From the NCBI GenBank assembly GCA_964373925.1, contig CAYJWS010000001.1:1-45338 (forward strand): a DNA stretch of 45,338 bases. The letters run 5' to 3'. Origin of the DNA: an uncultured Gammaproteobacteria bacterium. GTDB taxonomy: Bacteria; Patescibacteriota; Patescibacteriia; Buchananbacterales; GWA2-38-13. The notes under the pieces are model-generated. The model saw nothing but the letters and a program-made list of their open reading frames with translations, was not told the origin of the DNA and did no database searches. A program made the position numbers and the translations under genes. The first letter of the stretch is position 1. Every line of letters starts with the position of its first letter. Shown piece by piece: positions 2,338 to 41,240 of the stretch.

Positions 2338-3186
2338 ATGGTCAAAAAATTGCACAATCACGAATTTCATCTCATTGACGGCAAGGCACTCGCCGAAGAA
2401 ATCCTCTTGGATCTTCAAAAAAAAATTATCAAAGAAAACTTCCATCCCGGCCTTGCGGTCATTTTAGTCGGGGATGATGAACCGTCAAAACTCTATGTGA
2501 GGAACAAAGAAAGAGCGTGCCAGAAAGTGGGAATGGAGTTCCATAAATACATCTGCGAAAAAGAAACCGAAGGTCAAATTATTGACATGATACGTTTTCT
2601 TAATAATGACCCAGCTATCACGGGGATTATTGTGCAGTTGCCTTTGCCAAAAGGCATAAACACACAAAAAATAATTGATGGCATTGATCCAAAAAAAGAT
2701 GCTGATGGGTTTCACCCCCAAAACATAAAAAAAATACTTTCTCAAAAAACAGCGCATCTTCCTCCGCTCATAAAAACCATTTTTTATATTTTAAAAAGTA
2801 TTGCAATGGATGTGGTGGATAAACGCGTATGCGTGCTTTCCAGATCCGATATATTCCGACAGGTTATTGTGAAAGCCCTAGAAGATAAAGGAGCGCGTGT
2901 TGATGCCACAACGCTTGAAGCAACAAATGCAAAAAAAAATTTAAAAGAAGCGGATATCGTCATCTCCATCCTTGGAAAACCAAAAATCATCACGGGCGAT
3001 ATGATAAAAAAGGGCGCGACGATTATTGATATTGGAATCACAAAAACAGAAAATGGATTTTTTGGCGACGTTGACCTTGAGTCAATAAAAAAAGTGGCAA
3101 AATTCGCCACTCCCACGCCCGGAGGTGTTGGCCCGATCACGGTCGCAATGCTTTTAGATACGGTATTTGAGCTTTCAAGAAAATGA
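2338..3186 (+). CDS. folD: bifunctional methylenetetrahydrofolate dehydrogenase/methenyl-THF cyclohydrolase
   Basis: 282-aa ORF; YVRNKERACQKVGM, IIVQLPLP, DPKKDADGFHP and TPTPGGVGPITVAMLL match FolD signature segments; adjacent to glyA. Confidence 0.93.
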   Translation: MVKKLHNHEFHLIDGKALAEEILLDLQKKIIKENFHPGLAVILVGDDEPSKLYVRNKERACQKVGMEFHKYICEKETEGQIIDMIRFLNNDPAITGIIVQLPLPKGINTQKIIDGIDPKKDADGFHPQNIKKILSQKTAHLPPLIKTIFYILKSIAMDVVDKRVCVLSRSDIFRQVIVKALEDKGARVDATTLEATNAKKNLKEADIVISILGKPKIITGDMIKKGATIIDIGITKTENGFFGDVDLESIKKVAKFATPTPGGVGPITVAMLLDTVFELSRK

Positions 3187-3248: not shown

Positions 3249-3405
3249 TTCTCCCCCGTGTGAGGGCCTGCCTCGCCCCGTCTCGACTCGAGCCGGAGCG
3301 GACGGCAAGGCTGGGGAGATGGAAGAGGGGGTCTTGCGATATAATACGATGACCTCCCCAGCCCCTCCCTGCCTCGTCGGCGAGCGGGCTCATGAGGAGG
3401 GGAAA
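3249..3405. repeat. cluster of C-run/G-run palindromic repeats
   Basis: GC-rich block in AT-rich spacer; CTGGGGAG (3311-3318) pairs with CTCCCCAG (3354-3361); CCCCTCCC..GGAGGGG arms like those at 10070-10210 and 21906-21950. Confidence 0.55.
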
Positions 3406-9421: not shown

Positions 9422-10618
9422 ATGTCCTTCTCCATCGGCATTGTCGGACTGCCCAATGTCGGCAAATCAACACTTTTCAAAGCGCTCACCAAAAAACCAA
9501 TTGAAATCGCGAATTATCCATTCTGCACAATAAACCCCAATGTCGGCGTGGTAACAGTGCCAGATGAGCGGATTGAAAAACTTTCTCACATTTCAAAATC
9601 GGAAAAAACCATTCCGACTGTTATTGAATTTTTTGATATTGCCGGCCTTGTCAAAGACGCGCACAGAGGCGAAGGACTGGGGAATAAATTCCTCTCCCAC
9701 ATCCGCGAGGTAAAAGCAATTGTCCATGTCGTGCGCGGCTTTACCGACAAAAATATTATTCACGTCTCAAACCGCGTTGACCCCGAATCGGACAAAGAAA
9801 CCATTAATTTAGAACTTATCTTTGCCGACCTTGAAACCATTAACAAGCGCATGCGAGAAGAAGAGCGCAATGCCAAGGGCAATGACAAAGAAGCAATGGC
9901 GCGAGTCCCGGTATTAAAAAAACTTAAAGAACATTTGGAAAAAGGAAAACTTGCCAATGCACTTGAGCTCACCGACGAAGAGCGCGAGACTATAAAAGGA
10001 TTAAACCTTCTCACGGCAAAGCCTATGATAATGGTAATGAACGTAGACGAAGACTCTCCGCTGTTAAAATCCCCCTCTCCCCACCCCTCCCCCACAAGTG
10101 GGGAGGGAGAAAATGTAAAGCTAAGGAATTCCTCTCCCCTTATGGAAGGCAATAAATCCACACACTCTTCCCCTCCCCTGGTGGGAGGGGATAAAGGGGA
10201 GGGGGAAGCCACAATGGAAGGGGCGATCCCCGTCTGCGCGAAAATTGAAGCGGAGCTCGCCGAACTCTCTGACGATGAGGCCAAGGCATATCTCAAAGAA
10301 CTCGGCCTTGAGGTGAGCGGACTCCATAAGATTATCCAAAAGTCCTACGAAATTTTAGGGCTCATTACTTTTTTCACTTCCGGGCCCAAAGAAAGTCGGG
10401 CATGGACTGTACGTCGCGGCGCCAAAGCTCCCGAAGCCGCCGGCGTCATTCACACCGACTTTGAAAAAGGCTTCATACGCGCCGAAATTATTGCGTACGA
10501 TGATTTCATCGCCTGCGCGGGAGAGCTCGGCGCCAAAGAAAAAGGCAAACTCCGCGTTGAAGGAAAAGACTACGTCATCCAAGACGGCGACGTCGCGCAT
10601 TTTAGGTTTAATGTGTAG
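9422..10618 (+). CDS. ychF: ribosome-binding ATPase YchF, carrying an in-frame GC-rich insert
   Basis: 398-aa ORF; G1 GLPNVGKST, FCTINPN, DIAGLV, C-terminal IHTDFEKGFIRAE..DGDVAHFRFNV; about 35 aa longer than E. coli YchF as I recall it (363 aa) because of the segment at about 10055-10225. Confidence 0.93.
   Translation: MSFSIGIVGLPNVGKSTLFKALTKKPIEIANYPFCTINPNVGVVTVPDERIEKLSHISKSEKTIPTVIEFFDIAGLVKDAHRGEGLGNKFLSHIREVKAIVHVVRGFTDKNIIHVSNRVDPESDKETINLELIFADLETINKRMREEERNAKGNDKEAMARVPVLKKLKEHLEKGKLANALELTDEERETIKGLNLLTAKPMIMVMNVDEDSPLLKSPSPHPSPTSGEGENVKLRNSSPLMEGNKSTHSSPPLVGGDKGEGEATMEGAIPVCAKIEAELAELSDDEAKAYLKELGLEVSGLHKIIQKSYEILGLITFFTSGPKESRAWTVRRGAKAPEAAGVIHTDFEKGFIRAEIIAYDDFIACAGELGAKEKGKLRVEGKDYVIQDGDVAHFRFNV
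10070..10210 (+). repeat. two C-run/G-run palindromic repeat units lying inside the ychF reading frame
   Basis: CCCCTCCCCCacaagtGGGGAGGG (10084-10107) and CCCCTCCCCtggtGGGAGGGG (10170-10190); near-copy of the intergenic repeat at 21906-21950; translated as SPSPHPSPTSGEGE..SSPPLVGGDKGEGE. Confidence 0.7.
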
Positions 10619-14154: not shown

Positions 14155-14235
14155 CCACCTACTCCGCCAGATGGCGGATTCGGCGGACAGGCCCGCCTGC
14201 CAACGCCTGAAGCGTAGCTAATGGCGGGCAGGCAA
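14155..14235. repeat. GC-rich palindromic element in the 3' region of CDS 14284..14871
   Basis: stems CCGCCagatGGCGG, GGCGGacaggcCCGCC and GCCTGCC..GGCAGGC; shares CCTACTCCGCC with 863-922. Confidence 0.5.
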
Positions 14236-21203: not shown

Positions 21204-21884
21204 TTACTGCACAACCACCCTCCTTGTTATGGTATTATCTTTACTATGATCTTTTTTTGACGTAATAGTAATCTCGTTTATTCCATCTCGTAAGTTAATT
21301 TTTTGTGAAAATTTTCCATCTTCTCCAATAAGCACATTTTGGTCGTTGATAATGACATGAGTTCCGTCTAAAGTCCTTCCCTGAATTGTGATAAATTTTT
21401 CTTTTGTCAAAATATCCACGGAAGGATACAAGATCTCAAGCTCCGGTGGGCTGATAATCGCCTCAACCTTAAATCCTATGTATAAAAGGCAGACCAAAAC
21501 AATTGAAAATATGAAAGTATTTTTTAAAATCTTTGGAAGTGAGATCATGTGGAGCTGCGAAATTATCTTCGCTGGCTCCCTCATAGCAAATTTGCCCAAT
21601 GAGTTTAAATTTTTTTGGACAGTTCGCTCGCGCTTGTATATATGCGCCAGCTCATCGGGATCAAGTCCCAAATACGTTCCATATGCCTTGATAAAATTTT
21701 TCGTGTATACTTCGCCAGGAAGATTTTCGTACTCGCCTTTTTCAAGATAACTAAGATAATCTTTGGAAATTTTTAAAACATTCGCCACCTGTCCAAGCGT
21801 CATAGATTGCGACTTTCTTTTTGCCTCGAGTTTTTCTCCAAGCGAACTTTCTGTTTGTATCTTTTTTGATCGAAAACTTACCAT
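21204..21884 (-). CDS. RodZ-like membrane protein with an N-terminal XRE-type helix-turn-helix
   Basis: start moved to MVSFRS (ATG 21884); residues upstream of it translate the GC-rich repeat; [54 protein letters not shown] then one TM helix and a beta-rich outside domain. Confidence 0.7.
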
Positions 21885-21905
21885 AATTTTTAATAAATCC
21901 GAAAC

Positions 21906-21993
21906 TCTCCCCCTCTCCCATCCTCTCCCCCAAGGGGAGAGGAGAAGAGGTGAGGGCGTTTCGAGCTTCGCCCCGATCATTCGATGGGGCGAC
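21906..21993. repeat. C-run/G-run palindromic repeat plus a second GC hairpin between ftsK and the rodZ-like gene
   Basis: CCTCTCCCCCaaGGGGAGAGG (21921-21941) and TCGCCCCgatcattcgatGGGGCGA (21968-21992); very similar to 10070-10112 inside ychF. Confidence 0.6.
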
Positions 21994-22022: not shown

Positions 22023-22051
22023 ATTATACTCCTATTTTTCATCATCTTCAA
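22023..22051 (-). promoter_or_regulatory. sigma70-like promoter candidate for the rodZ-like/recA operon, overlapping the ftsK stop region
   Basis: minus strand TTGAAG (22051-22046), 17-nt spacer, TATAAT (22028-22023) preceded by AG, giving AGTATAAT as in the lexA promoter. Confidence 0.4.
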
Positions 22052-24323
22052 CCTCGTTTTCTTCGATTTGCGAGGATTCTTGGGCTGAATGTGAGATAAG
22101 TATCTCGCGCGGTTTTGCGCCATCGGAAGGCCCTATAACTCCTTGCCTCTCCAATAAATCAAGAATTCTTGCCGCTCGAGCGTATCCGATCTTGAGCCTT
22201 CGCTGCAGGAGCGAGGCCGATGCCTTCCCTGCCTGCATAATAACGCGTTTTGACTCTGGAAGGAGAGAGTCAGAATCATCATCGCTCATCTGCCCGATAT
22301 GTATTCCTCCAAGCTCGCTTGATTTTTCAACTACTTCATTAAGATATTCAGGCTCACCTTGTTTTTTAAGAAAATCCGTCACGCGTTTAATATCCTGATC
22401 CGAGGTAAGCGCGCCTTGCAAACGCTTTGGCTTTGAGAGCTCGGCCGATGTATAAAGCATATCTCCTCGTCCAAGAAGTTTTTCCGCGCCCGAGGTATCC
22501 AAAATAGTCCTAGAGTCAACAGCCGAAGCCACGGAAAACGCTATTCTTGTGGTAATATTCGCCTTAATCAACCCAGTAATAACATCAACTGAAGGGCGCT
22601 GTGTTGCCAAAACCAAGTGTATTCCAACAGCGCGCGCCATCTGCGCGAGTCGTATGATAAGCCCTTCAATCTCAGGGCCCGCCACCGCCATAAGGTCTGC
22701 AAGCTCGTCAATGATAAAAACAATATATGGCAATTTTTCTTCCATCTCGCGGTTATAAGTCGCGATATCTCTTTTATGAAATTCAGAAAGCTTGTCAAAT
22801 CTTCTTTCCATTTCATGAATGCACCAGCGAAGCGCGTTGATAGTTTTTTTTGTGTCTGTAATAACTGGCGTCAAAAGATGAGGAATCCCATTATAAATTG
22901 GAAGCTCGACCCTCTTGGGATCAACAAAAATAAAACGTAAATCTTCGGGACTATTCTGGAAAAACAGGCTCATAATAATAGAATTAATACACACGCTCTT
23001 TCCCGAGCCTGTTGACCCCGCAATAAGCATATGGGGCATCTTATGAATTTCTCCAAACCAAGGAGTTCCCTTAACGTCTTTTCCTATAGCAATAGAGAGG
23101 CTTGACTTTCTAGCTTGAAATTCACTGCTCTCGAGCATACTTCGAAGTGTCACCACCGCTGAAATTTTATTAGGGACTTCAATGCCAACGAGTGATTTCC
23201 CGGGAATAGGCGCTTCAATCCTAATGGGGTGCGCCGCAAGCGCTAATGCCAAGTTATCGTTTAAGCTGACAATTTTTGAAAGCTTAATACCCTCAGAGGG
23301 TTTTATGGTAAACTGCGTAACCGTAGGCCCTATATTCACCTCGCCCATTTCAACAGGAATATTAAAATTGGAAAGTGTTTTTTGTATGATCTCGCAATTC
23401 GCCTCTACATCACCACTTTTTGGCTTATGCGAAGTGCCATCCAAAAGATCAATGGGTATGTCAATTTTGGGAAAATGTTTTTTTATTTTTTCCTCCGGAG
23501 CTTCGTGAGTTTCCGGCCATTGAGTTTGTGCCTCCTCATCTTCCTCTTTGCTTTTATCATCTTCATAGTCTACCGGGATATTTTTGCTTTGAAATTCAAC
23601 CTCAACTTCTTCTTGCGGCTGATTCTCTTCTTTTGACTCGCCTTTCATCTTAAATTTTTGCTTATTGAACACTGCAAATAACGAAAAAAAACTTTTTAGC
23701 TTAGAAAAAAACGCCGCGTGCGAGGTATTAAAAAAAAGAAAAACACTTATGAGAAAAAAGGCAAACAAAATTATCGCGCTTGCGTAAAATCCAAATGCAC
23801 GTGACAGCGGATATGAAAGCATAAGGCCGAAAAGCCCGCCTCCAAGCCCAAGGCGCGCGGCATCAACGATGGTTTCGCGATACTTGATAAGGTGGACAAA
23901 TCCGTTAAAACTCAAAATCAAGAACATGCCCCCCAAAAAAACAACTCTGGAAATCCCTTTTTTTGAAGGTGACATGAGAAAAAATGAAACAGTGATAAAA
24001 ATTATCGGAACATACCATCGTCCAAATCCAAAAAATAATTTTATATAATATTGCAGGGCCTCTCCCGCTCTTCCGGCCAAATGAAACAAGCTCAAAAGCA
24101 TAACCGCGCCAAGCGCAAGCATGCAAATGCTCCCGATAGCCTTTTTGGCTTCCGGTGAAATATTTTTAAATTGTTTTGCAATTCCCAATGAAGAGTGCCT
24201 TTTGGGAGTAGAGTAATATTGGCTATATGTTCCTTGCGGCCGCGATGAACGGCGAGAAAACCAACCTCTTTTTCTTATTCTTTTTCTCATAAATGTGCCT
24301 GCCATTATCAAATAAATACACAT
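22032..24323 (-). CDS. ftsK: DNA translocase FtsK/SpoIIIE
   Basis: 763-aa ORF; N-terminal TM helices, acidic linker, Walker A GSTGSGKS, Walker B IVFIIDELADL, C-terminal gamma winged helix (LLQRRLKIGYARAARILDLLERQGVIGP); exact start uncertain (ATG 24323, 24305 or 24290). Confidence 0.92.
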   Translation of the reverse strand: MCIYLIMAGTFMRKRIRKRGWFSRRSSRPQGTYSQYYSTPKRHSSLGIAKQFKNISPEAKKAIGSICMLALGAVMLLSLFHLAGRAGEALQYYIKLFFGFGRWYVPIIFITVSFFLMSPSKKGISRVVFLGGMFLILSFNGFVHLIKYRETIVDAARLGLGGGLFGLMLSYPLSRAFGFYASAIILFAFFLISVFLFFNTSHAAFFSKLKSFFSLFAVFNKQKFKMKGESKEENQPQEEVEVEFQSKNIPVDYEDDKSKEEDEEAQTQWPETHEAPEEKIKKHFPKIDIPIDLLDGTSHKPKSGDVEANCEIIQKTLSNFNIPVEMGEVNIGPTVTQFTIKPSEGIKLSKIVSLNDNLALALAAHPIRIEAPIPGKSLVGIEVPNKISAVVTLRSMLESSEFQARKSSLSIAIGKDVKGTPWFGEIHKMPHMLIAGSTGSGKSVCINSIIMSLFFQNSPEDLRFIFVDPKRVELPIYNGIPHLLTPVITDTKKTINALRWCIHEMERRFDKLSEFHKRDIATYNREMEEKLPYIVFIIDELADLMAVAGPEIEGLIIRLAQMARAVGIHLVLATQRPSVDVITGLIKANITTRIAFSVASAVDSRTILDTSGAEKLLGRGDMLYTSAELSKPKRLQGALTSDQDIKRVTDFLKKQGEPEYLNEVVEKSSELGGIHIGQMSDDDSDSLLPESKRVIMQAGKASASLLQRRLKIGYARAARILDLLERQGVIGPSDGAKPREILISHSAQESSQIEENEVEDDEK

Positions 24324-33667: not shown

Positions 33668-36493
33668 TTACGAAGGATACGCGTCGCATCCCAAATCATC
33701 AGGCGTTGGATCCGAACCAACATTCTTTGTTCCAGGCGCTGGCGGTTCTGCTCCTCCTTGCGTAAACCACGTAGAAAAGTATATCCAATCCGATATATTT
33801 ACCTTGCCGTCATCATTTACGTCCGCCGCGTCAAGGCAAGAGAGTGGCTTTGCGTGGTTAAGATAATCCGAAAATGCCACTATGTCGGTTATATTAAGAG
33901 TGCCATCGCTATTGATATCGCCTCTGCGGAACAACTTTGGAGTGGAAACGCTCTTTGTCTGCGTTTTTGGATATTCGGCGCAACCAAGAGTGTCTTCCGT
34001 TGGATCAACTCCCGGAGTTGTGGGGCCTGGCAATGCCAGCGCGTCTCCGCTTCCATTAAACCATGCCATAAAGTTTACCCAGTCAGAAAGATCAACCGCG
34101 CCATCATCATTGGTATCGGCCGCGTCAAGGCAAGAAAGTTTTTCGCCTTTATTAATATAATTCGCAAAAGCCGATACATCGCTTATGTCTATGGCGCCGT
34201 CGCTGTTGATATCGCCTCTGCGGAATAATACCTGGGGTATGGTTATGGTAGCCGGATCGCCAAATGTGCTTACATAACTATTATAATCGCGGCTTTTTTT
34301 CCAAACCGGATATTCAAGGCTCGGATGTATTGCGCCAATTCTTGGACCATTCGCTATTACATCTTTTATGGCTCGAAGAGGATATTCGCCATAACAATAC
34401 GCATCAGACAATGATCGACTAACTTTATTTGCAATTGATAATCCAAAATTCTTTTCAAGATGCAATTTTAAATCTGCAATGCAAATCCTATCTTCGGTCA
34501 AAACTTTTCGAGCAATACCATAGGGGAATCGAATAGTTCTGCTGCTGAATGAAACTGGTTTTGGCTTTGCTTTATTGGTTGCAGGATATTTCTTGCATCC
34601 AAGCGTATCTTGCGTTGGATCTTCTCCGGCAATATTCGGCCCAGGCGCGGGAGGTTCTGCTCCGCCCCGGCTGTACCAGGCGCTTAAATATATAAAGTCA
34701 GATAAATCAATTGCTCCATCATCATTCACGTCAGCGGCGTCCAGGCAGCTTATTGATCGTGAAAAATTTATATAATCTGACATTACTATAAGATCTGAAA
34801 GGTCTACGGAACCATCGTTATTAACATCGCCTCGGCGGAATACTGCCGCCACAGAACGCTGCGGAATAATAACTGGACTAGCGCTCACCGATGGGCTTGG
34901 TGATACAGAAGGGTTGGGCACTGGCGAACTGGTTGGCGAAGCAGTTGCCGAAGGAGAAGCGCTTGGGCTCGGAGTTGGGTTTATGATTCCTGAATATGAA
35001 CTAGCTGTCACATCTGACCATGATCCACCGGCAATAGTACCGATAACGATAGATACACCCACATTGCCAATAGATGAATACTTATAAATCTGGTTCGGTG
35101 AGCTTGGTCTTAACCAAGGAGTCTTGGTAACAAATATATTATTAGAATCGTAAATGTTAAAACGTATTTCACCAAAAGCAAAATTGTCGGTTCCAGGTGC
35201 ACCATAGTTATTGTAAGCTAAATCTGCAACAACAATCCTGCCACCATTGTTAATAATAATAGTATCCCATTGAACTACGCGATATGTTCCATCGCCACGA
35301 AAAACTTTATTTGAGGATGGGGACGAGCTTGAAGATGGCGTAGGTGAGGTACTTGGACTTGGTGATACCGATGGGCTTGTCGCCGGAGTAGGCGTTGGCG
35401 TTACAGTTGGACTCGGGCTCGGAGAAGCCTGTGGCTGAAGCGTAGCAAAAGAATTAACTCCGCTAATCGCCCTGTTACTTAAAGTAATCCATGAGTCTAC
35501 TTTATAATAATACTTTGTATTTGGCTGTAAACCAGTAAGACGAATAAAATGCGATGAACGATAATCTCCTGCCTCTTGGATATAAGAAGATCCTGACGGA
35601 ACCGATGCGTCCGTGCTGTATGTTATATAGCCAGAACTAGGATAATTGCTATTCCATACAATTGATGCTGAATTTGAAGTAATTGAAGAAACGCCAATAT
35701 TAGACAGCGACACAGGCCCATAATCTACGTTATAATCTCTGCATTGTAAAGAATCTGGGGTGTCATCCGTACCATTAGAGAATGCCCCAGGTGCCGAGGG
35801 TGCCGCTCCACCATTAAAAAGAAAATTTAAAATATACTCTTGATCTTTTGCGTCTATTGTCCCGTCATCATTGGCGTCGGCGGCATCAAGGCAAGAAAGC
35901 AAGGCTCCTTGATTTAAGTAATTCTTAATGGCGCTGGGATCGGATACATCTACTTTTCCATCTTGATTCGCGTCTCCGCGTTTAAACCCCGCGCTTAATG
36001 TTCTAAGGGTACTGTCTGGACTATTTACGGCTTTTGCATTAATGTCAGATTCATTTCTACTTGAAACGTTAAAATGATATAAAGTATTTGGTTTCAAGTT
36101 GTTGACATAAACCAAGTGCGAAATTACGCTTTTTTCACCTTCCATTGCGTTGCCATAACTTGTATTTTCTCCATAATTTACATAGCTATTTGATGCCACA
36201 TTAGTACTCCATGAAATAATTGCTTTTGTCGCTGAAATTTGAGTGACCTTAATATTTGATATCGCAAGACCCAAAACAGGCGTATCTGCCGTGCTGCTTG
36301 GGCTTGGTGAAACCGATGAAGTGGTTTCAGATGGTGTATGGCTTACAGATATGGAATATCCGCTTCCTGCGACTCCAGAATTCTTTGCGCTGACAATATG
36401 CAGTGTTAACGCAAAAAATACTATTCCAAAAGCAGTGATTGCAAGAGGAATATACGAGTATAGAGCAGAGCCTTTTTTGTTATTTTGTAACAT
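33668..36493 (-). CDS. secreted multidomain protein with two FN3-like domains, P/S/T linkers and four dockerin-like calcium-binding modules
   Basis: 941-aa ORF; N-terminal hydrophobic leader; FN3-like segments (ISWSTNV..YG..Y, IVWNSNY..Y..Y); four ~85-aa modules F(K/R)RGD.N.DG..(D/N).(S/T)D...SCLDAAD.NDDG..D..D, the last three ending (L/A)PGP..DPT.D.LGC..YP. Confidence 0.85.
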   Translation of the reverse strand: MLQNNKKGSALYSYIPLAITAFGIVFFALTLHIVSAKNSGVAGSGYSISVSHTPSETTSSVSPSPSSTADTPVLGLAISNIKVTQISATKAIISWSTNVASNSYVNYGENTSYGNAMEGEKSVISHLVYVNNLKPNTLYHFNVSSRNESDINAKAVNSPDSTLRTLSAGFKRGDANQDGKVDVSDPSAIKNYLNQGALLSCLDAADANDDGTIDAKDQEYILNFLFNGGAAPSAPGAFSNGTDDTPDSLQCRDYNVDYGPVSLSNIGVSSITSNSASIVWNSNYPSSGYITYSTDASVPSGSSYIQEAGDYRSSHFIRLTGLQPNTKYYYKVDSWITLSNRAISGVNSFATLQPQASPSPSPTVTPTPTPATSPSVSPSPSTSPTPSSSSSPSSNKVFRGDGTYRVVQWDTIIINNGGRIVVADLAYNNYGAPGTDNFAFGEIRFNIYDSNNIFVTKTPWLRPSSPNQIYKYSSIGNVGVSIVIGTIAGGSWSDVTASSYSGIINPTPSPSASPSATASPTSSPVPNPSVSPSPSVSASPVIIPQRSVAAVFRRGDVNNDGSVDLSDLIVMSDYINFSRSISCLDAADVNDDGAIDLSDFIYLSAWYSRGGAEPPAPGPNIAGEDPTQDTLGCKKYPATNKAKPKPVSFSSRTIRFPYGIARKVLTEDRICIADLKLHLEKNFGLSIANKVSRSLSDAYCYGEYPLRAIKDVIANGPRIGAIHPSLEYPVWKKSRDYNSYVSTFGDPATITIPQVLFRRGDINSDGAIDISDVSAFANYINKGEKLSCLDAADTNDDGAVDLSDWVNFMAWFNGSGDALALPGPTTPGVDPTEDTLGCAEYPKTQTKSVSTPKLFRRGDINSDGTLNITDIVAFSDYLNHAKPLSCLDAADVNDDGKVNISDWIYFSTWFTQGGAEPPAPGTKNVGSDPTPDDLGCDAYPS

Positions 36494-36576
36494 AAATATA
36501 ACCTTTAATTATTAATTAATTTATTATGATTATACTATAGCATAAATTATAAAATTTTTCAAATATTATCCACAAT

Positions 36577-36607
36577 AAAACCGGATTTCTTGCGAAAATC
36601 CGGTTTT
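36577..36607 (-). terminator. terminator after the 1462-aa gene and small ORF (bidirectional shape)
   Basis: perfect 12-bp stem AAAACCGGATTT/AAATCCGGTTTT with a 7-nt loop. Confidence 0.8.
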
Positions 36608-36637
36608 ATGAATTTCCATGGAATTATTCAATGGAAA

Positions 36638-36784
36638 TTACGATAAACGGGATAGTGCGTTGGTTGCAGAGATTATCTGCAATGAAAACACAAAGTATGA
36701 CATGAAAATGAGGCATGTTGCAAATGCTGAATAGATTTGCACATACACTCTTTCTTGCACCGCATTGTTTTTTTCTTGCGCCAT
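36638..36784 (-). CDS. 48-aa ORF that is a paralogue of the giant protein N-terminal leader (orphan leader copy A)
   Basis: my translation: MAQEKNNAVQERVYVQIYSAFATCLIFMSYFVFSLQIISATNALSRLS; 13 of 30 identical to HIYLHAYTAFATTIVIVAFFVFAMQIASAS of the 1462-aa protein; below the ORF-track size cutoff; may be a gene remnant rather than a gene. Confidence 0.35.
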   Translation of the reverse strand: MAQEKNNAVQERVYVQIYSAFATCLIFMSYFVFSLQIISATNALSRLS

Positions 36785-36851
36785 AAGTTTATTGTGTTAT
36801 GTATTAGTTTTTGTTTTTGTTTTATCTCCAAGGCAACTTCCTTTAGAGTTT

Positions 36852-39800
36852 TTATTCACCAATTGTTAATGGAGTTGAGGTGGATGTCACGCCAAGCCCT
36901 GCCACAAGATACCCGTTAAACCACTGTTTGGTTGTTAAACCCGTGCCCGTAGTTGTTTCCGTTATATTAAGGTCTGACCAAACAAAATTTCCTTGATTAA
37001 GTATTTTATATGCAAATGCGCTTTCTCCTGGCGTAGTAGACGCTGTATCTCCAAGCAAGCTCGTTGATACGGTATCGGCATTTGTTGTCAGGGTGGCCGT
37101 GGCAATAAAATCAATTGTAGCGGTAGCGCCATTGGCAATACTCAATAAACTTTTACCATGCGACTGCGTTGAATCAATTGCCATGTTCCAAATCTTAACA
37201 CCAGATACAACATCAGATCCCACGGCTACTGTTGTCGCAAGTTGGCTTCCATCCATAATTCCGCCGCAACCGCCTCCGCATGATACAAGCCTTGTATAAC
37301 CATTCGCCAAGTTAACATTTACTGAAGTCGTTGTTACATACGATAAACGATAGATACCAATATTTCCTCCCACTGCCGTAATTTTTGCTTCATGCAACAC
37401 TGACATTGCTGAAAGCTTGTTTATGGGAGTAACCATAACTATCTGTGGAACGGATTTATGTAAAATAACAGCGGATCCAGTTGTATCATTAAGCGATACC
37501 GGAATCAAAGCTGCTGAAAGATTACCCATAGCCGTAAACCCATCCGGACCTCTGCCGCCTAAGCCCATTACAATGTCAGCGCTTTCAGTTCCGGGTAAGT
37601 TGCTTCCTATTGAAACAATATCCGCGAGAACGCTCAATTTTTTTCCAATATTGCCTTCTGGAATGGTTACGTCGCCTCTTACAAGATTAATAGTAAGATT
37701 CGCCGTACCCATATTATAACCAAATGGAGATCCGACAATATTGCCATCAAGCTTGAGGTAAACTTTGGAAATCTGCGTATAATCGCCAACTGCCGAATTA
37801 ATTTGCGCGTCTGCGACCGTAACAGTAAGCTTTGTGATATCAATAGATTCGTTAGTTGCCTTTAATCTGATATCGGTAAGCGGAACCGCGCTGCTTCCGG
37901 AAACCACAAGCCGCTTGGACAAAGCCGAAGCATCAAGTCCCGCGCTAGTATTTCCTGTTCCTGGAGTGCCTCCTTCGGCAATTGTTATTGGCGTACTTGT
38001 CGCAGTCGAACCTAATCCTGAAACAAGATAGCCATTAAACCACTGGGGACTTGTAAGGCCGCCAGATGTGGTGACTTCAGTATTCCTAAAATCTGACCAG
38101 ACAAAGTCGCCTTGATTATTAAGGGTAAACGCATATGCTGGCGCGCCTGTCAAATTGTCGGTCATGGTAGATGCGGTATCGCCAAGCAAGCTCGTTGATA
38201 CGGTATCGGCATTTGTTGTCAGGGTGGCCGTGGCAATAAAATCAATTGTAGCGGTAGCGCCATTGGCAATACTCAATAAACTTTTACCATGCGACTGCGT
38301 TGAATCAATTGCCATGTTCCAAATCTTAACACCAGATACAACATCAGATCCCACGGCTACTGTTGTCGCAAGTTGGCTTCCATCCATAATTCCGCCGCAA
38401 CCGCCTCCGCATGATACAAGCCTTGTATAGGCATTAGTCAGACCAACGCCTGAAGAAACCGCTGTAGTATAAGATAAACGAAATACACCAATGTTTCCTC
38501 CCACTGCCGTGATTTTTGCTTCATGGAGAATCGATGTAGTCCCAAGAGTGTTTGTGGGAGTAACCAAAACTATCTGTGGAACCGCCTTGTGGAGAATGAC
38601 TGCTGTGCCAGTTGAATCATTGTAGTTCTTGTTTGCGTTTGTAACTATTGCGTTTGAACCATTGCCTACGGCAATAAAACCATTCTTGCCATTTAATCCT
38701 ACTTTAATATCAGCATTATCTGTCCCTGCTTCGTTCGTTCCAATTTTCACGAGGTCAGCAAGAACTTCCAGTTTCTTTCCAACAGTACCCATTGGAATAG
38801 TCAAATCGCCTCTTCCAAGAGTAATAGTCATGTTTGAGGCGCCTATGTTATAACCGGAAGAATTTCCTACTACATTGCCGTCAAGCTTAAGATAAAACTT
38901 AGAAATTTGCGTATAGTTTCCTACACCAGTTCCCTTAAGTCCTCCGTCAGCTACCCTTACAATAAACTGTGTGATATCTATATCTTCATTGGTTGCTTGT
39001 AATCTAGCCGCAGTCATTGGCACCATGGATGAACCAGCTACAACGAGCCGTGCCGGCAGAACTGAAGAATCTAGGTTAATATTTAAAGTGCCAGCTCCTT
39101 GAGTTGGGTCTATAATTTTTACTTCTGGAGCCGTAACTTCACCTTCTGGCATGGCAATGATCTTTTCCACAGAATCAATGCCATATACAACAAGTTCATT
39201 AGGCACTAAAAATGTTGAAAGACTGTTTCCTACAATCCAAAAATCTAAATCACCATATATAGAAAAAGTATGTTCACCGACAGGAAGAACCACGTATTCT
39301 GTAAAAATAACTATTCTCGTTTTATCTGATAATCGATACGAAGAATTTTTTGGACCCATAATAACTTGACCCGATTCATCCCTTACTACAATATGCCTAA
39401 TGAGATCTGCCACATCGGGCGCAGGATGATTTAATCTAAAATGCACATCAAACATTGAAATGCTTACTGGCTCATTTTTTACAGTAAATTTAAATTTTCC
39501 AAGTAATACATTATCTGTCTTTTTTTGAGCTGTACCTGCTGAATCCAAGGGTTCAATATTAAGAGTTCCAATATCGCCCGAGTAAGGATAGGTTTCACAG
39601 CCCAAAGAATCTGGTGTTGGATCATAACCCGCAGTAAACGCGCCTGGACTAGGCAACTCTTGCACTGTGCCCAGACTATACCACGATGAAATATATATGG
39701 CGTCGGATAAATCTATTGCTCCGTCGTCATTGGCATCGGCGGCGTCTTCACATTGCATTTTTTTTGTAGAAGTAAAAATTTCCGTAATTCTTACCATATC

Positions 39801-41240
39801 GCTTATATCAACTTTTCCGTCAATGTTGGCATCGCCTCTTCGAAATTTCTTTTCTTGCGGAGATACCACTTTTAATAATTGAGATGTGCCTGCTCCTCCG
39901 CCTTGGGCATTTTGTATATTTTCATCATTGCCCACCGCTCTTTTTGTCCAAGCGGAAGCAGGTATAGAAGCGTGAACCAAGGATGAATCTTTAAGTGACG
40001 CAAGGATATTTGAATCATTATAGCCGCCGTAGCAAGATGCTTTTTTGGCAAAATCAAGAAATGATTTTTTTACGGTTTTCTTTCCTTTGAGCACATTAAA
40101 TCTTTTGACAAAATCATTATAACAAGCTCGCTCTGATTTTATTTCCATCCGCGGTTTGCCGTACGCATAAAACGCAATACTTGCAGAAGGCGCGGGATCT
40201 TTTGGATCATGGCCGGTACTTGCTTCTTGACCATCAGAAAATCCATCTCCGTCAGTATCGGTATTAAGAGGATCTGTTTTAAATACATTTTTTTCATCAA
40301 AATCATTAACGCCATCTTTATCCGTATCAATAAATGACAAAACATTTACGTTTAGTGGCTTTTGTTTTATTTGGACAGTAGGAGATACTAACTTTTTTTC
40401 TAGTGGATACTTCTCGCATCCCAGGTTATCTTTAGTAGGATCAATACCTGCAACCCTTGAACCGGGCGATGGCAATAATCTGTCTCCTCCATAACTTATA
40501 TAGGAAGAAAGGTTTACAAGATCCGATATGTCAATGCGCCCGTCATCATTAGTATCCGCAGCGTCCTTACAAATAATAGAATTTCCTGAATAGAGATAAT
40601 TGCTTAAAATTAAAATATCATTTACTGAAACAAATTCATCTCCGTCAACATCACCTCTTCGAAAACGCAAAGCTTCTTGAGTAACAGTATTATCAGGATT
40701 TGCTGGCGTTGAAATGATTGGTGATGGTGATAATTCTGGAGTTGGGGTTACTTTTGGAGTAGTTTGTGGATTTGGAGATTTTGAAACAACTGCAACTGGA
40801 TTTACTGAGGGTGTTGGTGTTGGAGATATGCGTTGTATTGGAGTAGCCGAGACTACTGGAGAGGGGGAGGGGCTTGGAGATGTCGATGGATTTGGTATTG
40901 GAGATGAAACTGGAGAAGGTGTAATACTTGCGCTTGGGGAAGGGCTTACGGAAGATGAGGAAGAAGGCGATGGAGTGGCGCTAGCACTCGACGTAACAGT
41001 CGTACTTGGGGATGGAGTTGTCGTAGATGGAGGGGTTGGCGAAGCAGAATACGCGACCCCCAAGATTCTTGGGTCATTAGTAATTTTTGTTGAAGCCGAG
41101 GCAATTTGCATCGCAAAGACAAAAAAAGCCACAATAACAATTGTGGTGGCAAACGCCGTATACGCGTGCAAGTAGATGTGTTCGTGAAAATGAGCATACC
41201 ATCCTTTTTTGTTTACATTTTTTGTTTGGGCGTTTTCCAC
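36852..41240 (-). CDS. giant secreted protein: leader, P/S/T linker, two dockerin-like modules, TSP3-like repeat, and two ~377-aa tandem repeats with a CGGGCGG motif
   Basis: 1462-aa ORF; FRRGDVDGDEFVSVND..CKDAADTNDDGRIDISD and FRRGDANIDGKVDISD..CEDAADANDDGAIDLSD; DTDKDGVNDFDE..DTDGDGFSDGQE; C-terminal half is a 1131-bp tandem duplication. Confidence 0.85.
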   Translation of the reverse strand: MENAQTKNVNKKGWYAHFHEHIYLHAYTAFATTIVIVAFFVFAMQIASASTKITNDPRILGVAYSASPTPPSTTTPSPSTTVTSSASATPSPSSSSSVSPSPSASITPSPVSSPIPNPSTSPSPSPSPVVSATPIQRISPTPTPSVNPVAVVSKSPNPQTTPKVTPTPELSPSPIISTPANPDNTVTQEALRFRRGDVDGDEFVSVNDILILSNYLYSGNSIICKDAADTNDDGRIDISDLVNLSSYISYGGDRLLPSPGSRVAGIDPTKDNLGCEKYPLEKKLVSPTVQIKQKPLNVNVLSFIDTDKDGVNDFDEKNVFKTDPLNTDTDGDGFSDGQEASTGHDPKDPAPSASIAFYAYGKPRMEIKSERACYNDFVKRFNVLKGKKTVKKSFLDFAKKASCYGGYNDSNILASLKDSSLVHASIPASAWTKRAVGNDENIQNAQGGGAGTSQLLKVVSPQEKKFRRGDANIDGKVDISDMVRITEIFTSTKKMQCEDAADANDDGAIDLSDAIYISSWYSLGTVQELPSPGAFTAGYDPTPDSLGCETYPYSGDIGTLNIEPLDSAGTAQKKTDNVLLGKFKFTVKNEPVSISMFDVHFRLNHPAPDVADLIRHIVVRDESGQVIMGPKNSSYRLSDKTRIVIFTEYVVLPVGEHTFSIYGDLDFWIVGNSLSTFLVPNELVVYGIDSVEKIIAMPEGEVTAPEVKIIDPTQGAGTLNINLDSSVLPARLVVAGSSMVPMTAARLQATNEDIDITQFIVRVADGGLKGTGVGNYTQISKFYLKLDGNVVGNSSGYNIGASNMTITLGRGDLTIPMGTVGKKLEVLADLVKIGTNEAGTDNADIKVGLNGKNGFIAVGNGSNAIVTNANKNYNDSTGTAVILHKAVPQIVLVTPTNTLGTTSILHEAKITAVGGNIGVFRLSYTTAVSSGVGLTNAYTRLVSCGGGCGGIMDGSQLATTVAVGSDVVSGVKIWNMAIDSTQSHGKSLLSIANGATATIDFIATATLTTNADTVSTSLLGDTASTMTDNLTGAPAYAFTLNNQGDFVWSDFRNTEVTTSGGLTSPQWFNGYLVSGLGSTATSTPITIAEGGTPGTGNTSAGLDASALSKRLVVSGSSAVPLTDIRLKATNESIDITKLTVTVADAQINSAVGDYTQISKVYLKLDGNIVGSPFGYNMGTANLTINLVRGDVTIPEGNIGKKLSVLADIVSIGSNLPGTESADIVMGLGGRGPDGFTAMGNLSAALIPVSLNDTTGSAVILHKSVPQIVMVTPINKLSAMSVLHEAKITAVGGNIGIYRLSYVTTTSVNVNLANGYTRLVSCGGGCGGIMDGSQLATTVAVGSDVVSGVKIWNMAIDSTQSHGKSLLSIANGATATIDFIATATLTTNADTVSTSLLGDTASTTPGESAFAYKILNQGNFVWSDLNITETTTGTGLTTKQWFNGYLVAGLGVTSTSTPLTIGE
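37051..37298. repeat. 248-bp segment 100% identical to 38182-38429 (copy in the distal tandem unit)
   Basis: base-by-base comparison of the two stretches at an offset of exactly 1131 bp (377 codons); flanks diverge immediately (37050 T vs 38181 G; 37299 A vs 38430 G). Confidence 0.9.
38182..38429. repeat. 248-bp segment 100% identical to 37051-37298 (copy in the proximal tandem unit)
   Basis: same as above; encodes TRLVSCGGGCGGIMDGSQLATTVAVGSDVVSGVKIWNMAIDSTQSHGKSLLSIANGATATIDFIATATLTTNADTVSTSLLG. Confidence 0.9.

What the first reader, a model, noticed from the sequence alone, without database searches (positions are those of the whole stretch)
10055..10225. GC-rich palindromic repeat sitting in frame inside the essential GTPase-family gene ychF
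The segment between the conserved MNVDED and IPVCAKIEAE blocks reads PLLKSPSPHPSPTSGEGENVKLRNSSPLMEGNKSTHSSPPLVGGDKGEGEATMEGA (56 aa). In my recollection of E. coli YchF the equivalent spacer is 21 aa. At the DNA level it contains two C-run/G-run hairpins, CCCCTCCCCCacaagtGGGGAGGG and CCCCTCCCCtggtGGGAGGGG. It is nearly the same sequence as the intergenic repeat at 21906-21950 (compare TCCCCCTCTCCCCACCCCTCCCCCACAAGTGGGGAGGGAG with CTCCCCCTCTCCCATCCTCTCCCCCAAGGGGAGAGGAG). The reading frame stays open, so an intergenic-type repeat appears to have entered a conserved gene and is translated. This is analogous to the in-frame palindromic elements known from Rickettsia (RPEs). I have not seen it described for this kind of genome.
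Basis: partly seen in the sequence, partly recalled or inferred. Interest (0 to 1): 0.65.

Follow-up and report, generated by a model that had tools for sequence, protein, structure and literature searches.

The report
Triplex-motif repeats translated inside ychF
A small GC-rich repeat that normally sits between genes (the BoxC / intrastrand-triplex motif known from E. coli) lies three times, in frame, inside the conserved ATPase gene ychF of an uncultivated Patescibacteria bacterium, where it most likely encodes a floppy surface loop; this is a real but fairly ordinary case of selfish palindromic DNA tolerated inside a protein.

Summary
ychF (9422-10618, +) has a 58-codon loop (10052-10225) where 120 related Patescibacteria YchF proteins usually have 9-10 codons. 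Two independent public assemblies reproduce it exactly. The insert is a cluster of three ~40-nt units, not one palindrome. Each unit has a C-rich stem, a loop, a complementary G-rich stem, a short spacer and a mirror-image G-rich tail. That is the architecture of the known G/C-rich intrastrand triplex motif (BoxC / PIT / TM_ECO, Holder et al. 2015), reported as always intergenic in E. coli. The window holds one more copy, at 21905-21956 between ftsK and a rodZ-like gene. An almost identical unit occurs in more than 120 metagenome contigs and in genomes of many phyla. The closest insert-free orthologues (79% and 74% identity, one syntenic) keep an AT-rich 10-codon loop, so the insertion is recent. 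Triplex-type inserts occur in at least four separated YchF lineages, at different codons of this loop. AlphaFold models the insert as disordered, between the G4 (NVDE) and G5 (CAK) motifs. About 3% of copies elsewhere are also in frame in real genes (ispG, mfd and others). Verdict: a new member of a known kind. How the repeat spreads is unknown.

The parts
9422..10618 (+). ychF coding sequence (398 aa): Obg-like ribosome-binding ATPase, host gene of the insert
   Evidence: ORF list. Pfam MMR_HSR1 7e-22 and YchF-GTPase_C 1e-39. PDB 1jal 3e-119 and 8kie 3e-118.
10040..10051 (+). G4 nucleotide-specificity motif N-V-D-E (residues 207-210), immediately upstream of the expanded loop
   Evidence: Alignment to the NVNE motif of H. 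influenzae and E. coli YchF. The motif closes strand 202-207 in the AF2 model. Assignment as the G4 motif is from my own knowledge of the family.
10052..10225 (+). Expanded loop of 58 codons (174 nt, GC 0.56 against 0.47 for the rest of the gene). The ancestral state is 9-10 codons.
   Evidence: Loop lengths in 120 orthologues. DNA of filled and empty sites. pLDDT below 50 for residues 220-264.
10070..10109 (-). Unit A, a triplex-type motif read on the minus strand. On the + strand it reads C-tail TCCCCCTCTCCCC (10070-10082), C-stem CCCCTCCCCC (10084-10093), loop ACAAGT, G-stem GGGGAGGGAG (10100-10109). It encodes SPSPHPSPTSGEG.
   Evidence: Motif finder hit 10074-10107 (-). 9-nt stems with at most 1 mismatch. 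Aligns to 21907-21946 with score 42.
10129..10149 (+). Unit B remnant. The C-stem TTCCTCTCCCC is intact and the G-stem is decayed (TTATGGAAGG). The homologous unit is intact in the P0002 lineage (TTCCTCTCCCCTGGTGGGAGAGGAAAGGAGAGGGGGAAA).
   Evidence: DNA alignment window versus L001. Motif hit L001 10730-10761.
10168..10207 (+). Unit C, a triplex-type motif on the coding strand: C-stem TTCCCCTCCCC, loop TGGT, G-stem GGGAGGGGA, spacer TAAA, G-tail GGGGAGGGGGAA. It encodes SSPPLVGGDKGEGE. It also fits a G-quadruplex consensus (G3+ N1-7, four times).
   Evidence: Motif finder hit 10169-10202 (+). Aligns to the reverse complement of the intergenic copy with score 41. Letter-identical copy in L135 and near-identical copies in more than 120 metagenome contigs. 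The G-quadruplex fit is read directly from the sequence.
10226..10249 (+). IPVCAKIE: the strand and G5 (C-A-K) motif that resume the conserved G domain after the insert
   Evidence: Alignments. Strand 269-271 and helix 273-280 in the AF2 model.
21905..21956 (.). Intergenic double-tailed copy of the same repeat: C-tail, hairpin CCTCTCCCC/GGGGAGAGG, G-tail AGGTGAGGG. It gives a triplex-type hit on both strands. It lies between ftsK (22032-24323, -) and a rodZ-like HTH gene whose probable start is 21884.
   Evidence: Motif hits 21912-21943 (-) and 21921-21955 (+). Gene identities and position of the HTH domain.

Best explanation
The extra 48 codons in this Patescibacteria ychF are a recent in-frame insertion of a small, dispersed, normally intergenic GC-rich repeat.

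Anatomy. The repeat unit is about 40 nt: a C-rich stem, a loop, a complementary G-rich stem, a short spacer and a mirror-image G-rich tail. This is the architecture of the G/C-rich intrastrand triplex motif described as BoxC, PIT or TM_ECO in E. coli and other bacteria. Three units are present. Unit A lies in one orientation. Units B and C lie in the other, and B is decayed. The outer C-tail and G-tail therefore form terminal inverted repeats around internal hairpins.

Shown. The cluster sits in the one short, AT-rich, variable loop of the G domain, between the G4 motif NVDE and the strand carrying G5. Insert-bearing and insert-free orthologous sites both exist.

Inferred.
- The pyrimidine and purine runs cannot contain stop codons, and they translate to Pro/Ser/Leu and Gly/Glu/Arg. 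The insert is therefore read through as a flexible, disordered surface loop that does not disturb the fold. It is most likely a neutral or slightly deleterious passenger, not an adaptation of YchF.
- Entry occurred after the split from the insert-free P0003 and P0004 lineages and before the window and P0002 lineages separated.
- The same loop has been hit independently in at least four YchF lineages. The likeliest reason is that it is the only place in the gene where an insertion survives selection.

Unknown. How the unit is copied to new places. The candidates are an unidentified single-strand or hairpin-specific enzyme, or template switching at the structure during replication. I favour genuine insertion of pre-existing copies over de novo growth.
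For: - Host gene identity.
- Filled and empty sites: loop lengths are 58 and 65 codons in the window and P0002. They are 10 codons in P0003 (79% identity) and P0004 (74%). The P0002 loci and the P0004 locus share the upstream HisKA and ~1070-aa Big_13 genes; I matched these to the window by ORF position and size only. The empty loops have GC 0.20-0.30 against 0.56 for the filled loop.
- Ancestral state: 9-10 codons in most of 120 orthologues.
- Repeat nature: local alignment to 21905-21956 scores 42 and 41 against a background of 16 +/- 3. The three-block motif gives 4 hits against 0 in 30 shuffles.
- Same architecture as the E. coli motif. In E. coli it occurs in inverted pairs. The table of 23 E. 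coli copies is in PMC4666352.
- Spread of the general pattern: it is found in 120 or more genome stretches from many phyla. 140 of 143 matches obey the full triplex rule, which the search pattern did not impose.
- Spread of the window's own sub-type: it is found in 120 or more metagenome contigs. Extra short contigs in the source metagenomes match only 10169-10206, with other flanks.
- Independent hits: triplex-type inserts occur in four separated clades of an NJ tree. They begin 7, 4, 2 and 7 codons after NVDE.
- Discordance with vertical descent: window unit A is 93% identical to L007 unit A although the two genes are 67% identical (P about 1e-4). L007 unit A is only 71% identical to that of its closer relative L008.
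- Translatability: seven triplex-type inserts of 60-195 nt are all multiples of three without stops.
- Structure: pLDDT is below 50 for residues 220-264, flanked by confident strands at 202-207 and 269-271.
- Precedent elsewhere: the motif is in frame in ispG of an Omnitrophota MAG (+11 aa against PDB 3noy). It is also in the mfd linker of a Bordetella-labelled MAG (63 aa against 15 aa), in a Brocadia radical-SAM protein, in a FecR-TPR protein, in two DUF2229 proteins and in an AAA_22 protein.
- Assembly support.
Against: - Translation is not shown. No transcriptome or proteome data could be found.
- No target-site duplication or sharp insertion boundary can be read. The ancestral 30-nt loop is not recognisable around the insert.
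- No transposase or other mobilising gene is linked. None is known for this repeat class in E. coli either (PMC4666352).
- Only 45 kb of the genome is available, so the copy number per genome is unknown.
- The order of the window, P0002 and P0003 lineages is close to a trichotomy. DNA identities are 0.862, 0.845 and 0.799. The protein NJ tree even pairs the window with P0003. One precise loss instead of one gain cannot be fully excluded.
- The strict TM_ECO consensus (CCCTCNCCC stems, 3-nt second loop) is not met by the window copies.
- Neutrality is assumed, not tested.
Confidence: 0.75

Rival explanations
1. One ancient insertion in an early Patescibacteria YchF, inherited vertically and lost many times, rather than recurrent independent insertions into the same loop.
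For: Three lineages share the same layout: a C-orientation unit, an AT-rich spacer, then a G-orientation unit. The first unit is read in the same kind of frame, S/T-P-x-P ... G-x-G. Triplex-motif loci are reported to be deletion-prone (PMC4666352). P0011 and P0099 look like secondary losses within insert-bearing clades.
Against: Insert-bearing clades are separated by many lineages with a conserved 9-codon loop (DKIYQETDY and variants). A single origin would therefore need many precise losses. Insert positions within the loop differ. Unit similarity is discordant with gene similarity: 93% between genes that are 67% identical, but 71% between genes that are 78% identical.
Confidence: 0.12
2. The segment is kept because it does something for the cell. 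One option is a lineage-specific protein loop, for example a flexible binding or regulatory segment next to the nucleotide pocket. The other is a nucleic-acid structure that tunes ychF expression: hairpins or a G-quadruplex in the mRNA pausing ribosomes between the two halves of the G domain, or an unstable DNA tract acting as a switch.
For: The insert has been retained in frame in two lineages that are 86% identical in DNA. The RNA folds more stably than shuffles, z = -3.25 for the window and -3.4 for L001. Unit C on the coding strand fits a G-quadruplex consensus. The position is adjacent to G4 and G5.
Against: Between the window and P0002 the insert evolves faster than the gene. It shows indels, a decayed unit B and a 21-nt nested insertion. 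The closest relatives do without it. The model shows no order. The same unit is overwhelmingly intergenic elsewhere, and in E. coli it showed no promoter, terminator or regulatory activity (PMC4666352). Purine-motif triplexes are stated not to form in RNA.
Confidence: 0.1
3. The repeats grew in place: replication slippage or template switching on an initially small GC-rich hairpin generated the units locally, so nothing was transposed.
For: No target-site duplication and no transposase. Units are tandem or inverted neighbours. Smaller GC hairpins are nested inside spacers and loops. A different 30-nt double hairpin occupies the same loop in other lineages.
Against: Unit C is letter-identical or nearly so to copies in more than 120 unrelated contigs, including loop and spacer bases that no local process would reproduce. 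The intergenic copy 11.7 kb away matches both halves. The empty sites are 20-30% GC and contain no seed hairpin.
Confidence: 0.08
4. Assembly artefact: a repeat shared by many community members was wrongly threaded into ychF by the assembler.
For: The unit is at high aggregate depth in the source metagenomes, about 150 against 16 for the flanks in run X1. Contigs of two other runs break inside the insert.
Against: Two independent Logan assemblies span the whole insert with no difference. A homologous insert in the sister lineage is assembled by different pipelines in at least 4 samples. Frame and length are consistent across seven lineages.
Confidence: 0.02

Closest known systems
BoxC / PIT / TM_ECO G/C-rich intrastrand triplex motif (E. 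coli and other bacteria; Holder et al. 2015, PMC4666352)
   Same: Same three-block architecture: a C-rich stem, a complementary G-rich stem and a mirror G-rich third block. The sequence is very similar: E. coli CCCTCTCCC-TGT-GGGAGAGGG-TTA-GGGTGAGGG against window CCTCTCCCC-TTGG-GGGAGAGGA-TGG-GAGAGGGGG. Both are dispersed and multi-copy and occur singly or as inverted pairs. No mobilising gene is linked to either. Both are associated with local indels.
   Different: In E. coli K-12 all 23 copies are intergenic. Here three units are in frame inside a conserved gene. The window units use CCCCTCCCC or CCTCTCCCC stems and 1-5-nt second loops, so they fail the strict TM_ECO consensus. The host is a low-GC (40%) Patescibacteria genome, a group not covered in that study.
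Rickettsia palindromic elements (RPE; Ogata et al. 2000, cited in PMC3184786)
   Same: A palindromic repeat found both between genes and in frame inside conserved protein genes. It is translated as an extra surface segment compatible with the fold, and is regarded as selfish DNA.
   Different: RPEs are single elements of about 105-146 bp restricted to Rickettsia (size per PMC3184786, the rest from my own knowledge). Here the insert is a cluster of ~40-nt units of a family spread over many phyla. No sequence comparison with RPEs was run.
Other small repeats fused in frame to genes: pneumococcal BOX/RUP/SPRITE, Bordetella and Yersinia repeats, Coxiella MITEs (PMC3184786, PMC5896051, PMC10969869)
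   Same: Short non-autonomous repeats with hairpin potential, mostly intergenic, occasionally internal to or fused with coding sequences.
   Different: Those have recognisable terminal inverted repeats with target-site duplications, or lineage-restricted consensus sequences. This unit is defined by a polypyrimidine/polypurine mirror rule and is nearly identical across phyla.
Cyanobacterial small dispersed repeats (Elhai et al. 2008; from my own knowledge, not read here)
   Same: Hairpin repeats of 20-30 nt that appear at orthologous sites without target duplication and nest inside each other.
   Different: Different sequences. Not checked here for coding insertions.

Membership tests
G/C-rich intrastrand triplex motif (BoxC / PIT / TM, ITxF definition) | Three consecutive blocks: pyrimidine stem, loop, complementary purine stem, loop, purine block mirror-symmetric to the second. 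Stems at least 8 nt with at most 1 mismatch, and short loops. | tested here: met
   My own finder gives 10074-10107 (-), 10169-10202 (+), 21912-21943 (-) and 21921-21955 (+), and 0 hits in 30 shuffles. Best stems are 9-11 nt. My finder allowed loops of 1-8 nt. Some first loops come out at 7 nt at the stem lengths shown, above the 1-6 nt used by ITxF.
G/C-rich intrastrand triplex motif (BoxC / PIT / TM, ITxF definition) | Strict TM_ECO consensus CCCTCNCCC N3-6 GGGNGAGGG N3 GGGNGAGGG | tested here: not met
   Window stems are CCCCTCCCC or CCTCTCCCC, and second loops are 1-5 nt, against the pattern quoted. The window copies are a sister sub-type, not the E. coli sub-type.
G/C-rich intrastrand triplex motif (BoxC / PIT / TM, ITxF definition) | Dispersed, multi-copy, over-represented relative to chance | tested here: met
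   Two loci in 45 kb against none in shuffles. The copy number in this organism's whole genome could not be measured.
G/C-rich intrastrand triplex motif (BoxC / PIT / TM, ITxF definition) | Intergenic location ('always' in E. coli K-12) | tested here: not met
   Units A-C lie inside ychF, in frame. The copy at 21905-21956 is intergenic. Elsewhere about 3% of copies are inside real genes.
G/C-rich intrastrand triplex motif (BoxC / PIT / TM, ITxF definition) | Single strand folds into a triple helix in vitro (CD/NMR) | not testable with these tools
   Only hairpin energetics could be computed: RNA -69.2 kcal/mol with z = -3.25, and DNA with z = -2.75.
Rickettsia palindromic elements (RPE) | Sequence homology to the RPE families, in Rickettsia | not tested
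   No RPE consensus was available for comparison. The organism is Patescibacteria by the names of its closest YchF relatives, and the unit matches a different described family.
Rickettsia palindromic elements (RPE) | In-frame insertion in a conserved gene, at the protein surface, compatible with the fold | tested here: met
   The frame is open and all insert lengths are multiples of 3. The insert is a disordered loop between confident strands. This supports 'works like an RPE', not membership.
MITE | Terminal inverted repeats plus target-site duplication, derived from an IS with the same ends | tested here: inconclusive
   The outer C-tail and G-tail can pair. No target duplication or sharp boundary is visible against the empty sites. 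No cognate IS was seen in the window. An ISL3 fragment in L001 is unrelated.
REP / REPIN (RAYT-mobilised) | GTAG or CGTC tetranucleotide at one end of the palindrome; RAYT gene in the genome | tested here: not met
   No GTAG or CGTC head on any unit, by sequence inspection. The criterion is from PMC3733652. Presence of a RAYT gene is not testable with 45 kb.
YchF / OLA1 subfamily of Obg-like ATPases (host gene) | G domain with an NxxE G4 motif, inserted coiled-coil domain, C-terminal TGS-like domain | tested here: met
   Pfam MMR_HSR1 plus YchF-GTPase_C. Full-length alignment to 1jal and 8kie. Helical hairpin at 121-173 in the model.

The most novel reading that the evidence does not exclude
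The BoxC/triplex-motif unit is an actively mobile, cross-phylum, non-autonomous element. Its origin and means of spread have remained unknown since the 1990s. Under this reading it inserts de novo into AT-rich DNA using a ubiquitous host function or an unrecognised enzyme. When it lands in permissive loops of genes it seeds new disordered protein segments. The repeated, independently dated hits in the YchF loop, plus ispG, mfd and DUF2229, would then give the first clean filled-versus-empty sites from which its insertion mechanism and target rule can be read.
Probability: 0.3. Interest if true: 0.65.

Novelty: new member of a known kind. Interest (0 to 1): 0.4.

Why it matters
1. It corrects the picture of BoxC/triplex motifs as purely extragenic. 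They can be carried in frame in conserved genes of several phyla, where they add Pro/Ser/Gly/Glu-rich disordered loops.

2. Filled and empty orthologous sites inside a well-aligned gene are the cleanest evidence so far that these units arrive by insertion. That bears on the unresolved question of how such a conserved ~45-nt sequence spreads across phyla.

3. It is a practical warning for annotating Patescibacteria and other metagenome-assembled genomes. Length outliers of core proteins, N-terminal ORF extensions (as at 21980) and short 'hypothetical proteins' can be translated repeats.

4. It does not point to a new function of YchF.

Tried and rejected
- I searched the 56-aa insert peptide against 1.84 billion protein representatives. 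Only three borderline hits to 74-82-aa ORFs came back. Protein-level search cannot census these inserts.
- I looked for RNA runs to test transcription or processing. None could be listed.
- An Rfam scan and a tRNA scan of the whole window found nothing. The units are not a described RNA family.
- I looked for a target-site duplication or a retained ancestral loop. An AATAAA shared by the middle of the insert and the empty sites is expected by chance about one time in four by my own estimate, so I dropped it.
- I considered filing the insert as a MITE or as a REP/REPIN. I rejected both: no target duplication, no cognate IS, no GTAG or CGTC head.
- I checked whether the RefSeq annotation of MG1655 marks BoxC at 164.5 kb. 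No repeat feature is listed there. The link to BoxC therefore rests on PMC4666352.
- I tested whether flanks of metagenome copies are AT-rich. They are, 0.39-0.41 against 0.50 for the locus. That is also what intergenic DNA looks like, so it is not evidence for a target preference.
- I considered programmed bypassing or excision of the segment. Nothing supports it, and consistent frame maintenance in seven lineages argues for read-through.
Full report
**1. The observation**

Window 9422-10618 (+) is a 398-aa YchF. It matches Pfam MMR_HSR1 and YchF-GTPase_C. It aligns over its full length to the H. influenzae and E. coli YchF structures, E about 1e-119. Those alignments break into two blocks. 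Query residues 213-262 stay unmatched against only 13-15 residues of the solved proteins.

A local alignment confirms the link to the intergenic sequence.
- 10070-10112 matches 21907-21946 on the same strand, score 42.
- 10158-10207 matches its reverse complement, score 41.
- 200-nt pieces of the rest of the window give mean 16, sd 3 and 99th percentile 25.

The assembly is sound. Contigs built independently from two public runs span 9800-10500 with no difference.

**2. Anatomy**

The insert is a cluster of three units, not one palindrome. Read in what I call the G orientation, each unit has five parts:
- a C-rich stem of about 9 nt,
- a 4-6-nt loop,
- a complementary G-rich stem,
- a 1-5-nt spacer,
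- a G-rich tail that is the mirror image of the G-stem.

Unit A (10070-10109) lies in the opposite orientation, so its tail is a C-tail at the 5' end. Unit C (10168-10207) lies in the G orientation. Between them is unit B (10129-10149). Its C-stem is intact but its G-stem has decayed. In the sister lineage (P0002, locus L001) unit B is intact.

The outer C-tail and G-tail can pair, enclosing the inner hairpins. The RNA fold is -69.2 kcal/mol with z = -3.25 in the window, and z = -3.4 in L001.

The copy at 21905-21956 is a hairpin with a tail on both sides. It lies between ftsK and a rodZ-like HTH gene.

**3. Identity of the unit**

A full-text search for the stem sequence led to Holder et al. 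2015 (PMC4666352). That paper describes a G/C-rich intrastrand triplex motif, earlier called BoxC and PIT, with this pattern: CCCTCNCCC N3-6 GGGNGAGGG N3 GGGNGAGGG.

Its reported properties:
- 23 copies in E. coli K-12, all intergenic.
- Five copies as inverted pairs.
- No link to transposons.
- The single strand forms a triplex in vitro, but this was not detected in vivo.
- No promoter or terminator activity.
- Raised local sequence variability between strains.

I wrote a finder for this three-block rule, with stems of 8 nt and at most one mismatch in both the Watson-Crick and the mirror comparison. It gives four hits in the window: two in ychF and two overlapping, opposite-strand hits at the intergenic copy. 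It gives none in 30 dinucleotide-preserving shuffles. The window units fail the strict E. coli consensus, because their stems are CCCCTCCCC or CCTCTCCCC and their second loops are longer or shorter than 3 nt. They are a sister sub-type.

**4. Distribution**

The hosts include:
- Alpha-, Beta-, Gamma- and Deltaproteobacteria,
- Planctomycetota, Nitrospirota and Chloroflexota,
- Acidobacteriota and Verrucomicrobiota,
- Omnitrophota, Atribacterota, Nostoc and Patescibacteria.

Of 143 matches, 140 obey the full triplex rule, although the pattern fixed only six bases of the C-stem.

The 23-nt core of the window's unit C found at least 120 metagenome contigs of GC 0.37-0.64. Nearly all continue with the spacer and a GGGGAGGGGGA tail that the query did not require. 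Some are letter-identical to the window copy.

In the source metagenomes, several short contigs match only 10169-10206 and then continue into other sequence.

**5. History in YchF**

Among the 120 closest YchF clusters, all Patescibacteria-like, the loop between NVDE and the (I/V)x(I/V)(S/C)AK(I/L)E strand is usually 9-10 residues, often DKIYQETDY.

| Lineage | Identity to window | Loop length | Note |
|---|---|---|---|
| P0002 | 87% | 65 residues | Homologous, longer insert; loci share flanking genes with P0004 |
| P0003 | 79% | 10 residues | 30 nt at 20-30% GC |
| P0004 | 74% | 10 residues | 30 nt at 20-30% GC; syntenic locus |

Outside the loop, DNA identity is 0.862 for window/P0002, 0.845 for window/P0003 and 0.799 for P0002/P0003. 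The insertion is therefore recent. The branching order is close to a trichotomy, and the protein NJ tree even pairs the window with P0003. P0003 and P0004 share the AT-rich loop, so the simplest reading is one gain in the window/P0002 ancestor.

Triplex-type inserts also occur in P0006 and P0008, in P0087 and P0089, and in P0010. These clades are separated by many short-loop lineages. The inserts start 7, 4, 2 and 7 codons after NVDE.

Unit similarity does not follow gene similarity. Window unit A is 93% identical to that of P0006 although the genes are 67% identical (P about 1e-4). P0006 and its closer relative P0008 have units only 71% identical, of different sub-types.

I therefore favour at least four independent insertions, or replacements, over one ancient event.

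Other features of this loop:
- Small unrelated GC hairpins are nested inside several inserts.
- A second family, two TCCGCC/GGCGGA-type hairpins of 30 nt in all, encodes SAKGGPASGG. It splits DKIYQET|DY cleanly in yet other lineages.
- All seven triplex-type inserts read at DNA level are multiples of three without stops.

**6. Effect on the protein**

The AlphaFold2 model has mean pLDDT 76.7 and pTM 0.75. Confidence is below 50 for residues 220-264. The whole insert shows no secondary structure beyond one short helix. It lies between strand 202-207, which ends in the G4 motif NVDE, and strand 269-271, which precedes the G5 motif CAK.

The insert is therefore inside the G domain, after the coiled-coil domain. 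It occupies the place where E. coli YchF has about 22 residues.

Polypyrimidine and polypurine runs cannot contain stop codons. They translate to Pro/Ser/Leu and Gly/Glu/Arg. This explains why such a unit can be read through as a flexible loop.

**7. Generality**

The phenomenon is not peculiar to this genome. Among 143 genome matches and 122 metagenome matches, most are spanned only by short ORFs. Several lie inside real genes:
- ispG of an Omnitrophota MAG, +11 aa against PDB 3noy.
- The D2-D3 linker of mfd in a Bordetella-labelled MAG, 63 aa against 15 aa.
- A Brocadia radical-SAM/SPASM protein.
- A FecR-TPR protein.
- Two DUF2229 proteins, hit within the domain.
- The linker of an AAA_22 protein.

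That is roughly 3% of copies.

**8. Mechanism and rivals**

Shown:
- the repeat identity of the insert,
- filled and empty orthologous sites,
- recurrence in the same loop,
- frame maintenance,
- a predicted disordered loop.

Inferred:
- translation,
- neutrality,
- insertion of pre-existing copies rather than growth in place.

Unknown: how the unit is copied. No target duplication, transposase or RAYT-type signature was found.

I rank the rivals below the main reading, for the reasons given in their entries. They are one ancient insertion with many losses, a selected protein or mRNA function, local growth by slippage, and an assembly artefact.

**9. Comparison and novelty**

By architecture, the unit is a member of the described triplex-motif class, in a sub-type other than the E. 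coli one. The behaviour is that of Rickettsia RPEs and of other small repeats known to fuse in frame with genes (PMC3184786). I found no report of this for Patescibacteria, or for BoxC-type motifs in coding sequence. The library searched is incomplete.

I class it as a new member of a known kind. Interest is moderate. The value lies less in ychF than in the clean insertion sites it offers for a widespread repeat whose means of spread is still unknown.

Noticed in passing
L253 3433-3489; L254 1211-1267 (YchF loops of P0081 and P0032): A second family of GC-rich mini-hairpins sits in frame in the same YchF loop of other Patescibacteria lineages. The 30 nt are TCCGCC-AAA-GGCGGA plus CCCGCC-TCT-GGCGGG, encoding SAKGGPASGG. 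They split the ancestral DKIYQET|DY cleanly. The sister cluster P0105 has the empty site.
   Followed up: partly
window 14162-14209: An intergenic GC-rich island (at least 75% GC in a 40% GC genome) made of TCCGCC/GGCGGA-type hairpins. The same kind of hairpin is nested in the spacer of the P0006 insert (L007).
   Followed up: no
window 3250-3402: Two adjacent GC-rich long-hairpin segments (CTCCCCC...GAGGGGG and CCTCCCC...GAGGAGGGG) downstream of ORF 2338-3186. There is no Rfam match. They may be another repeat or a structured RNA.
   Followed up: no
window 21885-21980 (-): The mechanical ORF for the rodZ-like HTH_25 gene starts at ATG 21980 and reads through the triplex-motif unit (ETPSPLLLSPWGRGWERG). 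The HTH domain begins at residue 51 and an internal Met at 21884 is the more likely start. Gene callers may extend ORFs through these repeats.
   Followed up: partly
L009 2306-2379 (inside called gene 1738-2574, -): An inverted pair of triplex-type units lies in frame in a hypothetical ORF next to ychF in the P0087 genome. Further palindrome-like peptide stretches are in the same ORF. A bAvd/23S_rRNA_IVP gene lies between it and ychF.
   Followed up: partly
L151, L183, L214, L230, L241, L251 (metagenome contigs): A sub-family of the unit has conserved flanks, AGTCGAATTT-[unit]-GGACGTAAGTG, in several low-GC contigs (a few more contigs carry near variants). This may be a longer composite element or one conserved locus.
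   Followed up: no
L143, L153, L185, L192, L206, L238: The same hairpin without a G-tail, followed by a conserved TCACCCTGTTAGATAG. This is a different context for the same stem-loop.
   Followed up: no
L189 3503-4642 (-) and L219 231-1370 (+): Two different metagenome contigs carry the unit in frame within the DUF2229 domain of CoA-enzyme-activase-like proteins. It is not known whether this was inherited or is a second hot spot.
   Followed up: no
window 36852-41240 (-), repeats 37036-37335 and 38167-38466: A 300-nt direct repeat (93% identity) lies inside a 1462-aa ORF. A 63-nt family is repeated across the neighbouring large ORFs (33807-40602). These look like repetitive surface-protein genes.
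   Followed up: no
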